In this document: positions 1,420 through 2,071 of the stretch, one piece after another
Position numbering within the stretch: position 1 is the first letter of the stretch
Layout: the number at the start of each line of letters is the position of its first letter
IMG/VR virus record: IMGVR_UViG_2703718777_000022
Origin: a virus
Taxonomy: Duplodnaviria > Heunggongvirae > Uroviricota > Caudoviricetes
Strand: one strand, 5' to 3'
Length of the DNA: 10,045 bases
Position numbers and translations under genes: made by a program
The notes under the pieces: model-generated
The model's database searches: none
What the model was told of the DNA's origin: nothing
Seen by the model: only the letters and a program-made list of their open reading frames with translations

Positions 1420-1428
1420 AGCATCAAT

Positions 1429-1461
1429 GTATCAGGTCGATAATATCATTTGACCTGATAC
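1429..1461. terminator. hairpin between convergent genes, possible bidirectional terminator
   Basis: gtatcaggtc (1429-1438) is the exact reverse complement of gacctgatac (1452-1461), extendable by a G-U and an A-U pair to a 12-bp stem with a 9-nt loop. It lies between the stop of the plus-strand SSB-like gene (1419) and overlaps the stop of the minus-strand gene (1446-1448). Flanks are only moderately T-rich, so terminator function is uncertain. Confidence 0.35.
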
Positions 1462-2045
1462 TTACTTGCATCTACTTTCAATAACTGTAAATTATACTTA
1501 TTTATAACTTCTCGCCCCGGGAAAAGAGTCCAGAACATAAAAAACGTAAACAAACAAAACAACATTACAACAACGCCGAGAACCATATAAACAGTACCCT
1601 TATTTAGCAACAAACACAGAAATATTAGGCCATACCCCAAATAAAAAATAGCTGCAATTTTAGAATGCAAGCGATATCGTTTATATTTACCTTTATAAGG
1701 TATAAAAAATCTATCATATTTACATTGAATATGAGGTGCTAAGAACCACCACCGCCAAGATGGCATATCTAATTCAGAATACGTTCTTATATAAAGAATT
1801 AACGGCCTAAGTTTCAAATTAACCATACCCAAGATGCTTTTTTTGATTTCTCTTTTTATTTCTGCCTTCATAAACTCTAACTCAGAAGGATCAATATACT
1901 CCCGATAATTTTCAAGAATATGTGAGAATTTTGTTGTTTTCGACAAAAACCAACTAACATCATTCAATAATTTATAAACACCGACTGCTGCGGTTATACC
2001 TGGGATTATGAGTCCGACAAGTGCAATAACATCTTTTATTTCCAT
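1446..2045 (-). CDS. hypothetical 3-TM membrane protein on an AT-rich insert (candidate accessory/moron gene)
   Basis: 199-aa ORF on the minus strand with an AAGGG Shine-Dalgarno 8 nt upstream of the ATG. Three hydrophobic segments: residues ~6-24 (VIALVGLIIPGITAAVGVY), ~122-139 (IAAIFYLGYGLIFLCLLL) and ~144-167 (VYMVLGVVVMLFCLFTFFMFWTLF). Hand counts on 60-nt stretches give roughly 22-37% GC here against about 68% in a sampled stretch of the polymerase gene. The only large ORF in this interval. No family recognised. Confidence 0.6.
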   Translation of the reverse strand: MEIKDVIALVGLIIPGITAAVGVYKLLNDVSWFLSKTTKFSHILENYREYIDPSELEFMKAEIKREIKKSILGMVNLKLRPLILYIRTYSELDMPSWRWWFLAPHIQCKYDRFFIPYKGKYKRYRLHSKIAAIFYLGYGLIFLCLLLNKGTVYMVLGVVVMLFCLFTFFMFWTLFPGREVINKYNLQLLKVDASKYQVK

Positions 2046-2071
2046 ACAACTAACCCTTCGGAATAAATACC

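What the first reader, a model, noticed from the sequence alone, without database searches (positions are those of the whole stretch)
1420..2071. AT-rich, opposite-strand membrane-protein gene inserted inside the replication operon
The 199-aa ORF at 1446..2045 runs antisense to an otherwise co-directional nuclease-SSB-polymerase operon. Hand counts give about one-third GC or less here against about two-thirds in a sampled stretch of the adjacent polymerase gene. It encodes a protein with one N-terminal and two C-terminal hydrophobic helices and no family I recognise. A hairpin overlaps its stop codon, and its start lies only 26 bp from the divergent polymerase start. This is the signature of a horizontally acquired moron; single membrane proteins at such positions are often superinfection-exclusion or abortive-infection factors. 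It is my best candidate for an undescribed function in this window.
Basis: partly seen in the sequence, partly recalled or inferred. Interest (0 to 1): 0.8.

Follow-up and report, generated by a model that had tools for sequence, protein, structure and literature searches.

The report
Swappable prophage membrane gene, likely anti-phage
An AT-rich, backwards-facing gene between the DNA-binding-protein and polymerase genes of an E. coli prophage encodes a small inner-membrane protein of an unstudied family; it sits in a slot where related prophages swap in known or candidate anti-phage genes, so it is a good but untested candidate for a new phage-exclusion protein.

Summary
ORF 1446..2045 (-) is a real 199-aa gene (RefSeq WP_032314218.1, "hypothetical protein") in an E. 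coli prophage integrated next to yfhL. It is the lowest-GC 600-bp stretch of the prophage sequence examined (0.32 against 0.51, z = -4.3). It has three predicted membrane helices, a hairpin across its stop codon, and starts 26 bp from the polymerase start.

It is not a one-off insertion. The interval from the SSB stop codon to the polymerase ATG is a cassette-exchange slot. Of 159 E. coli genomes with this module, 13 carry this allele, 7 a 68%-identical allele and 67 a distant homologue (hhalign probability 98%) in the same place and orientation. Others carry a SIR2 gene (PADLOC candidate PDC-S25), Nmad5 or BRO-N genes.

The family is small, confined to Enterobacterales mobile elements, always AT-rich, and matches only phrog_10579 (unknown function). 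Outside the slot, members lie in the P4-satellite defence hotspot and beside Dsr1, an OLD/GajA-like ATPase and PDC-S20.

No fold or sequence match gives a mechanism. The layout resembles P22 SieA, but homology was tested and not shown. Best reading: a stand-alone membrane phage-exclusion or defence protein. No experiment supports this yet.

The parts
1446..2045 (-). Coding sequence of a 199-aa predicted inner-membrane protein (WP_032314218.1). It belongs to an uncharacterised family that corresponds to phrog_10579.
   Evidence: ORF. RefSeq CDS at the identical place. Homologues of 64-98% identity. 18 representative clusters in 1.84 billion proteins. dN/dS 0.32. TM helices at 6-24, 130-148 and 152-170. 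AF2 model with pLDDT 81.
1420..2071 (.). The exchangeable cassette: everything between the SSB stop codon (1417-1419) and the polymerase ATG (2072).
   Evidence: Alignments of five slot variants lose similarity exactly at the SSB stop codon and regain it at the pol ATG. This is the lowest-GC segment of the prophage sequence examined.
1429..1461 (-). Hairpin with a 10-bp perfect stem and a 13-nt loop that contains the TGA stop codon. Probably the terminator of the cassette gene, and possibly a barrier to read-through from the SSB gene.
   Evidence: It is kept in the 68%-identical allele through one compensatory change (T-A to C-G) and one G-C to G-U change, and is there followed by a T-run. Stop-codon-spanning hairpins also occur in L011 and L030. 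The terminator scan did not call it.
2046..2071 (.). 26-bp spacer between the two divergent start codons. It carries GAAGGG (complement of 2054-2059) 8 nt upstream of the ORF's ATG. It is too short to hold a promoter.
   Evidence: Sequence. The spacer is 23-52 bp in all alleles examined, and no sigma-70 consensus lies within 400 bp upstream on the minus strand.
871..1419 (+). Left flank of the slot: Enc34/Gp2.5-type SSB (DUF2815).
   Evidence: Pfam PF10991, 1.3e-43; phrog_112.
2072..4135 (+). Right flank of the slot: family-A DNA polymerase. Its first codons must lie under, or downstream of, the cassette gene's promoter.
   Evidence: Pfam DNA_pol_A; phrog_17, 1.3e-125.

Best explanation
The ORF is a real accessory ('moron') gene carried in a cassette-exchange slot of a temperate-phage replication module. 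It encodes a roughly 23-kDa inner-membrane protein that acts alone.

Predicted layout: N-terminus outside, TM1, a basic helical cytoplasmic domain of about 100 residues, a TM2-TM3 hairpin, and a short conserved cytoplasmic tail.

The most likely job is to protect the lysogen against other phages at the inner membrane. My preferred mechanism is a block of incoming DNA transfer, as P22 SieA does.

Shown:
- gene reality and foreign composition;
- slot boundaries and allelic replacement;
- no partner gene is shared between the genomic contexts examined;
- neighbourhood with known and candidate defence genes.

Inferred:
- membrane topology;
- expression in the lysogen, from a promoter inside or beyond the first polymerase codons;
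- terminator role of the hairpin;
- the anti-phage function and its mechanism.

My sub-probabilities: real mobile cassette gene about 0.95; anti-phage function of any kind about 0.6; entry block specifically about 0.3.
For: Presence and spread:
- This allele is in 13 of 5426 complete E. coli genomes. The SSB/pol module is in 159.
- Similarity between slot variants breaks exactly at the SSB stop codon and the pol ATG.
- The same slot and orientation hold a 68%-identical allele in 7 genomes and a 207/209-aa protein in 67 genomes. The 207/209-aa protein is a distant homologue: hhalign probability 98%, E = 4e-14 and 7e-14.
- More distant members P0014, P0016, P0023 and P0026 lie in the same position in other prophages: between SSB and pol for three, and antisense next to the SSB on a short contig for P0016.

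Evolution:
- The cassette diverges much faster than its flanks: dS 0.55 against 0.18 (SSB) and 0.085 (pol). dN/dS of 0.32 still shows purifying selection.

Defence neighbourhood:
- The alternative occupant of the slot in strain TUM1880 is a SIR2 protein matching PADLOC PDC-S25 at 3.9e-157. The next slot, downstream of pol, holds a TIR protein matching PDC-S35 at 1.7e-109.
- P0013 lies between psu and cII/int of a P4-like satellite, next to a PDC-M36A gene. This is the P4 defence hotspot of PMC9122126. In that hotspot, 6 of 8 loci of unknown function protected against phages (PMC13586616).
- P0019 lies next to a full-length Dsr1 (2227 bits). P0022 lies two genes from an OLD/GajA-like ATPase-TOPRIM. 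A Pantoea plasmid copy lies next to PDC-S20.

Resemblance to SieA:
- Same order of TM1, cytoplasmic loop, TM hairpin and conserved cytoplasmic tail. The window tail reads FPGREVINKYN; the SieA motif is FxRYPxEAxxFNK.
- sieA is likewise a single, antisense, AT-rich gene: P22 0.34 against 0.46, HS1 0.36 against 0.48. It also has very divergent types at one fixed locus.
Against: - There is no functional data of any kind.
- No PADLOC model matches the protein. One family member reaches E = 0.0015 on a '2TM effector' model.
- Homology to SieA is not detectable: hhalign probability 2-7%, against 99.5% for the SieA type A versus type B control.
- No consensus promoter was found for the gene.
- Almost none of the protein is predicted to face the periplasm. 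An entry blocker would therefore have to act within or below the membrane.
- Guilt by association in hotspots is suggestive only. BRO-N and Nmad5 genes, which are not known defence genes, use the same slot.
Confidence: 0.5

Rival explanations
1. Abortive-infection effector with a built-in sensor. The cytoplasmic domain detects a phage product, and the TM hairpin then oligomerises and depolarises the membrane. The infected cell dies before phage release.
For: - In known defence systems, transmembrane proteins are thought to be suicide effectors (PMC9122126).
- The family keeps company with Abi-type neighbours: Dsr1, SIR2, TIR and OLD.
- The conserved residues F113, R125, Y135, P176, N185 and D192 lie at or near the cytoplasmic face.
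- One family member gives a weak hit to a PADLOC '2TM effector' model, E = 0.0015.
Against: - No significant match to SLATT, CBASS 2TM/4TM, RexB or holin families.
- The protein is small and has no recognisable sensor domain.
- The gene is stably carried with no partner or antitoxin in any context examined.
Confidence: 0.2
2. A non-antiviral accessory membrane protein. Examples would be an orphan immunity protein against a membrane-targeting bacteriocin or contact-dependent toxin, or an envelope-modifying lysogenic-conversion factor.
For: - Small, AT-rich, antisense inner-membrane proteins with 3-4 TM helices are typical of pore-forming colicin immunity genes (established knowledge).
- The family also occurs on Pantoea plasmids and next to hha.
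- Not every gene in the slot is a defence gene: BRO-N and Nmad5 also occur there.
Against: - Colicin or microcin immunity Pfam models reach only E = 0.19 to 4 in single members.
- No toxin gene is adjacent in any context.
- Where neighbours can be named, they are known or candidate anti-phage genes.
Confidence: 0.12
3. A replication-linked function. Either the protein anchors the phage replisome to the membrane (as phi29 p16.7 and p1 do), or the antisense transcription unit serves mainly to throttle read-through from the SSB gene into the polymerase gene in the lysogen.
For: - The position inside the replication operon is fixed, and the orientation is the same across many divergent alleles.
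- The hairpin and the convergent orientation sit exactly between SSB and pol.
Against: - The family also lives outside any replication module: in a P4 satellite, downstream of umuDC, and on plasmids.
- The slot can instead hold plus-strand SIR2, BRO-N or Nmad5 genes, and some of those variants lack the family altogether.
- BPP-1, YeP5 and APSE-1, which share the module, carry unrelated small genes in this interval.
- Being antisense, the gene would not be co-expressed with the replication genes.
Confidence: 0.07
4. Not a functional gene: a chance ORF in an AT-rich spacer, or a decaying remnant.
For: - No annotated function.
- No consensus promoter found.
Against: - Full-length conservation at 64-98% identity across Escherichia, Enterobacter and Klebsiella aerogenes.
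- dN/dS 0.32.
- Recognisable homologues down to about 20% identity with the same architecture.
- A confident AF2 model once the deeper alignment is used.
Confidence: 0.01

Closest known systems
P22 SieA superinfection-exclusion protein (types A, B, C; Pfam PF26849), Leavitt et al., mBio 2024 (PMC10883804)
   Same: - Prophage-borne, single-gene, inner-membrane protein.
- TM1, cytoplasmic loop, TM2-TM3 hairpin, and a short cytoplasmic tail that carries the most conserved motif: SieA FxRYPxEAxxFNK, here FPGREVINKYN with P176 invariant and N185 nearly so.
- Antisense to its neighbours and AT-rich.
- Very divergent types occupy one fixed locus.
   Different: - No detectable homology: hhalign probability 2-7%, against 99.5% for the SieA A-versus-B control.
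- The cytoplasmic domain is about twice as long.
- The locus differs: SSB-pol junction here, between genes 16 and 9 for sieA.
- This family is also found in P4 satellites, on plasmids and in defence islands. In all cases examined in that study, sieA lay in a P22-like prophage.
- Function is untested here.
P2 and P4 defence hotspots (Rousset et al. 2022, PMC9122126; 2026 NAR follow-up, PMC13586616)
   Same: - A fixed position in a mobile element, bounded by conserved genes, where unrelated cassettes replace one another.
- Occupants include SIR2 and TIR proteins and genes of unknown function.
- One member of this family (P0013) sits in the P4 psu-int hotspot itself.
   Different: - The slot here lies inside the early replication operon of a different temperate-phage lineage, the DUF2800-DUF2815-PolA module.
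- More than half of its E. coli occupants belong to one divergent family.
- I found no description of this slot as a hotspot in the literature I searched.
Transmembrane effectors of abortive-infection systems (lambda RexB, CBASS 2TM/4TM, SLATT)
   Same: - A small helical membrane protein encoded on mobile elements among defence genes.
- The conserved sites are cytoplasmic.
   Different: - No partner sensor, cyclase or RexA-like gene in any context.
- No significant sequence or fold match.
MotA/TolQ/ExbB/ZorA stator-type proteins
   Same: - Same predicted topology: N-terminus outside, TM1, large cytoplasmic domain, TM2-TM3 hairpin, cytoplasmic C-terminus.
- They top the Foldseek PDB list.
   Different: - No TolR/ExbD/MotB/ZorB-like partner is present.
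- The resemblance is in topology only.

Membership tests
P22 SieA family (PF26849) | Detectable sequence homology to SieA type A or type B | tested here: not met
   hhalign of family profile A5 against the SieA type A profile: probability 4%, E = 0.01. Against HS1 type B SieA: probability 1.8%. With enlarged profiles: probability 7.4%. Positive control, SieA type A against type B: probability 99.5%, E = 1.4e-22. The local Pfam copy lacks PF26849, because P22 SieA itself gets no hit.
P22 SieA family (PF26849) | Three-TM inner-membrane protein with the conserved cytoplasmic tail motif FxRYPxEAxxFNK | tested here: inconclusive
   Three TM helices are predicted. The tail reads F-P-G-R-E-V-I-N-K-Y-N, with P176 invariant and N185 nearly so. 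It is similar in place and flavour to the SieA motif, but the spacing differs by two residues.
P22 SieA family (PF26849) | Located between homologues of genes 16 and 9 in a P22-like prophage | tested here: not met
   Here the gene lies between a DUF2815 SSB and a family-A polymerase, in a prophage with a different replication module and a different set of structural genes.
P22 SieA family (PF26849) | Blocks DNA injection by superinfecting phage | not testable with these tools
   Needs potassium-efflux or DNA-entry assays.
phrog_10579 (PHROGs, unknown function) | Significant match to the family HMM | tested here: inconclusive
   The window protein alone reaches E = 0.099. 19 of 20 aligned family members match, best E = 2.6e-10. 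Membership holds for the family as a whole but not for the window protein on its own score.
Moron (independent accessory transcription unit in a phage genome) | Composition different from the surrounding phage genes | tested here: met
   GC 0.323 against 0.507, z = -4.3, the lowest 600-bp window in the prophage sequence examined.
Moron (independent accessory transcription unit in a phage genome) | Present in some and absent from other closely related phages | tested here: met
   13 of 159 genomes with the module carry it. Other cassettes fill the same interval.
Moron (independent accessory transcription unit in a phage genome) | Own promoter and terminator | tested here: inconclusive
   A conserved hairpin spans the stop codon, but the terminator scan does not call it. 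No sigma-70 consensus promoter lies within 400 bp upstream.
Known or candidate defence systems in PADLOC-DB v2.0.0 | Match to any defence-protein HMM | tested here: not met
   No family matches the window protein at E <= 1. Among 20 family members there are only stray weak hits.
MotA/TolQ/ExbB/ZorA | Significant fold or sequence similarity, plus a TolR/ExbD/MotB/ZorB-type partner gene | tested here: not met
   [not shown]
Pore-forming colicin / microcin immunity proteins | Match to the immunity-protein families, with an adjacent or cognate toxin | tested here: not met
   Pfam Colicin_immun reaches E = 0.19 in one member, and the Microcin (colicin E1 immunity) model E = 4.2 in one member. No toxin gene is nearby.

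The most novel reading that the evidence does not exclude
The family is a new, stand-alone class of inner-membrane phage-exclusion proteins, functionally like SieA but unrelated to it or only very remotely related. It moves between prophages, P4 satellites and plasmids of Enterobacterales. The SSB-polymerase junction of this temperate-phage lineage would then be a previously undescribed defence hotspot embedded in a replication operon, with rapid allele turnover driven by an arms race with incoming phages.
Probability: 0.3. Interest if true: 0.65.

Novelty: new variant of a known kind. Interest (0 to 1): 0.5.

Why it matters
If the protein excludes phages, it adds a compact one-gene membrane defence with no detectable relatives among known systems.

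It would also mark a new exchange hotspot inside a phage replication operon, one that already carries SIR2 and TIR cassettes. That gives a cheap way to mine further candidates from the roughly 3% of complete E. coli genomes with this prophage type, many of them from patients or livestock.

The steep divergence of alleles at one fixed locus makes a natural series for asking what sets the target range of membrane-level exclusion. For SieA that question is still open.

If the gene turns out not to be antiviral, the finding is a routine hypothetical membrane moron.

Tried and rejected
- Pfam, NCBIfam, PADLOC and PDB sequence searches with the protein and with the 20-member alignment gave nothing significant.
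- The first AF2 model, built on 10 close homologues, was poor (pLDDT 58). The 20-sequence alignment gave pLDDT 81.
- The TolQ/ExbB/ZorA resemblance was rejected as topology only.
- SieA homology was tested with single sequences, with profiles and with a positive control, and was not shown. tblastn with P22 SieA found only type A genes.
- The other minus-strand proteins of the slot were tested against the family profile and are unrelated: 229 aa in L021 and 89 aa in L003.
- tblastn of the window protein against 50,697 phage records found no match. Only the 209-aa homologue is in deposited phages, vB_EcoM-689R2, -611R5 and -606R2.
- The promoter scan and my own relaxed scan found no convincing promoter.
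- Rfam found no RNA family in 1300-2200.
- Literature searches by accession number, phage name and PHROG id returned nothing. The new P4-hotspot systems named in the 2026 paper (Bandua, Aernus, Toga, Reve, Crouga, Hailong) do not match this protein's description.

Full report
**1. The observation**

The window is the left arm of an E. coli prophage integrated next to yfhL. It is 100% identical to strain 2014C-3061 and to several bovine isolates.

The plus-strand genes are:
- a DUF2800 PD-(D/E)XK nuclease;
- an Enc34/Gp2.5-type SSB (DUF2815);
- a family-A DNA polymerase;
- an ANR/PerC-like protein, DUF4406, VRR-NUC and Rha;
- an SNF2 helicase.

The integrase lies on the minus strand.

ORF 1446..2045 (-) is annotated in RefSeq as hypothetical protein WP_032314218.1.
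- Its GC is 0.323 and its GC3 is 0.30, against 0.507 for the rest.
- It is the lowest-GC 600-bp window of the 28.5 kb of prophage I could see, z = -4.3.
The true range is 0.48-0.58.
- Three hydrophobic helices lie at 6-24, 130-148 and 152-170.
- The perfect 10-bp hairpin 1429-1438 / 1452-1461 encloses the stop codon.
- The 26-bp gap to the polymerase ATG is as described.

**2. It is a real gene of a small, unstudied family**

- A search of 5.8 billion proteins found only ten clusters. Nine are full-length 199-aa proteins of 64-98% identity, and the named ones come from Escherichia, Enterobacter and Klebsiella aerogenes. The tenth is a 110-aa fragment from Enterobacter hormaechei.
- dN/dS against the 68%-identical E. 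coli allele is 0.32.
- A profile search of 1.84 billion representatives found 18 proteins. Thirteen of these, 192-240 aa long, align with the window protein at 17-40% identity and show the same architecture.
- P176 is invariant across this set. F113, R125, Y135, N185 and D192 are nearly so.
- 19 of 20 members hit phrog_10579, a family of unknown function.
- Nothing significant turned up in Pfam, NCBIfam, PADLOC or PDB sequences.
- With the 20-sequence alignment, AlphaFold2 gives pLDDT 81 and pTM 0.60. The model has an N-terminal helix, four short helices and a small beta-hairpin (residues 36-114), a long TM hairpin (120-174) and a C-terminal helix.
- The 25-125 segment holds 20 Lys/Arg, and the tail holds 5. 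By the positive-inside rule this gives N-terminus outside and C-terminus inside, with almost all of the soluble mass in the cytoplasm. This topology is a prediction. In some distant members TM1 and TM2 fall below the hydropathy threshold.

**3. The interval is an exchange slot, not an insertion scar**

The SSB/polymerase module occurs in 159 of 5426 complete E. coli genomes. This cassette occurs in 13.

Alignment of five variants shows that similarity stops exactly at the SSB stop codon and resumes at the polymerase ATG.

Occupants of the slot:

| Occupant | Where seen |
|---|---|
| This allele | 13 genomes |
| 68%-identical 199-aa allele, preceded by a BRO-N gene | 7 genomes |
| 207/209-aa minus-strand protein, commonest form; also in the deposited E. 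coli phages vB_EcoM-689R2, -611R5, -606R2 | 67 genomes |
| Nmad5 gene plus an unrelated minus-strand membrane protein | L003, L021 |
| BRO-N alone | L005 |
| SIR2 protein | L024 (strain TUM1880) |

- The 207/209-aa protein is only 23% identical by BLASTP. It is nevertheless a family member by profile comparison: probability 98%, E = 4e-14 and 7e-14.
- At least 87 of the 159 modules therefore hold this family, in the same position and orientation.
- More distant members P0014, P0023 and P0026 sit in the same interval, antisense, in other prophages of this type. P0016 sits antisense next to the SSB on a short contig.
- The cassette diverges far faster than its flanks: dS 0.55 against 0.18 and 0.085. 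This fits allele replacement by recombination in the conserved flanks.
- Every member I examined has 29-36% GC against 43-54% in its surroundings. Low GC is a lasting trait of the family, not a mark of recent arrival.
- Phages of other hosts that share the module (BPP-1, YeP5, APSE-1) carry other small genes in this interval.

**4. Company it keeps**

- The SIR2 occupant matches PADLOC candidate PDC-S25 at 3.9e-157 and has a ThsA-like SIR2 domain.
- A second variable slot lies just after the polymerase gene. In many relatives it holds a TIR protein matching PDC-S35 at 1.7e-109. In this window it holds ANR/PerC-like and DUF4406 genes instead.
- P0013 lies between psu and cII/int of a P4-like satellite, next to a PDC-M36A gene. 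That interval is the P4 defence hotspot (PMC9122126). In it, 6 of 8 randomly chosen loci of unknown function protected against phages (PMC13586616).
- P0019 lies next to a full-length Dsr1, a system PADLOC lists as an anti-phage defence. P0022 lies two genes from an OLD/GajA-like ATPase-TOPRIM. P0018, P0019 and P0022 all lie close to umuDC-like genes. A Pantoea plasmid copy lies next to PDC-S20.
- No partner gene is shared between these contexts, so the protein most likely acts alone.

**5. Expression signals**

- The start codon lies 23-52 bp from the polymerase ATG in all alleles. The promoter must therefore lie within or beyond the first polymerase codons.
- Neither the tool nor a relaxed scan found a sigma-70 consensus there. 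This point is unresolved.
- The hairpin across the stop codon is kept in the 68%-identical allele through one compensatory change and one wobble change, and is there followed by a T-run. L011 and L030 have analogous hairpins. I read it as the cassette's terminator. That is an inference.
- A GAAGGG Shine-Dalgarno sequence lies 8 nt upstream of the ATG.

**6. Mechanism**

The nearest functional analogue I could find is P22 SieA. [quoted passage not shown]

Shared features:
- the order TM1, cytoplasmic loop, TM2-TM3, conserved cytoplasmic tail;
- an aromatic-Pro-Gly ... aromatic-Asn tail motif;
- antisense orientation;
- low GC (P22 0.34, HS1 0.36);
- the pattern of types below 30% identity at one locus.

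I tested homology directly. The family profile against SieA type A, against HS1 type B, and against both combined gives hhalign probabilities of 4%, 1.8% and 7.4%. The alignments are co-linear but cover only the TM2/TM3-tail region or less. The SieA A-versus-B control gives 99.5%. The protein is therefore not a demonstrable SieA homologue. 'Works like SieA' remains a hypothesis.

The main alternative is an abortive-infection effector whose cytoplasmic domain senses infection.

Three other readings are less likely, for the reasons listed under the rival explanations:
- an immunity or lysogenic-conversion protein;
- a replication-linked role;
- a non-gene.

**7. Verdict**

- The 'moron, candidate exclusion/abortive-infection factor' reading is reasonable and gains contextual support.
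- The picture changes in one respect: this is an old, rapidly diversifying resident family of a standing exchange slot.
- Function remains unproven.
- I searched by RefSeq and GenBank accessions, phage name, PHROG id and recent P4-hotspot systems. I found no description of this family, or of this slot, in the literature available to me.

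Noticed in passing
window 4141-4652; L002, L009, L011, L020, L024 downstream of pol: A second variable slot lies immediately after the polymerase gene. This window has an ANR/PerC-like gene (71 aa) and DUF4406 (99 aa). Many relatives carry a 253-aa TIR protein there, matching PADLOC PDC-S35 at 1.7e-109.
   Followed up: partly
L024 6661-8142 (E. coli TUM1880): A 493-aa SIR2 protein occupies the same SSB-pol slot on the plus strand. 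It matches PADLOC PDC-S25 at 3.9e-157 and has a ThsA-like SIR2 domain.
   Followed up: partly
window 4908-5084 (+) and 5053-5382 (-): Two Arc-family genes face each other and overlap by 32 bp. Their products share the identical first 14 residues, MSKRDDPQLRVRIP. This looks like a duplicated repressor pair in a third variable region, between VRR-NUC and the SNF2 helicase. Relatives carry BRO-N/Ant, DUF6338 or unknown genes there.
   Followed up: no
L021 4615-5939; L003 2086-3075: The Nmad5 variants of the slot also carry a minus-strand membrane protein next to the polymerase start (229 aa or 89 aa). These are unrelated to the family studied here. In L003 the Nmad5 gene is frameshifted.
   Followed up: partly
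L022 455-970; L004 1-157: HNH / NUMOD4 homing-endonuclease-type genes are inserted in the same operon in some relatives: between the DUF2800 nuclease and the SSB gene in L022, and upstream of the nuclease gene in L004.
   Followed up: no
L006 3260-5606 (P4-like satellite): The P4 psu-int hotspot here holds a 479-aa PDC-M36A protein. It is followed, 301 bp later on the same strand, by a 201-aa member of the family. I did not resolve whether they work together.
   Followed up: partly
L019 3710-4282 (APSE-1 P47): In the aphid-symbiont phage APSE-1, the corresponding SSB-pol interval holds a 190-aa minus-strand coiled-coil protein (CCDC90-like / DUF1640). This is another antisense gene at the same junction in a distant relative.
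   Followed up: no
L028 1562-3450: Near family member P0019 lie an aGPT-Pplase3/ADDT gene and a thymidylate-synthase-like gene, which suggest DNA hypermodification. A full-length Dsr1 is also adjacent.
   Followed up: no
L002 2050-2101 and the corresponding stretches just after the SSB stop codon in L004 and L005; window 1420-1445: In most slot variants the SSB gene is followed by a GC-rich hairpin (GCCCGG-5 nt-CCGGGC; followed by a T-run in L004 and L005). This window lacks it and has only the AT-rich hairpin across the stop codon. Transcription into the polymerase gene may therefore be controlled differently between variants.
   Followed up: partly
window 8173-10045: The prophage integrase abuts yfhL (4Fe-4S ferredoxin), with an AT-rich 200-bp junction. 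Every one of the 5426 genomes has a match somewhere in the window, presumably to the yfhL end. I did not map the att site.
   Followed up: no
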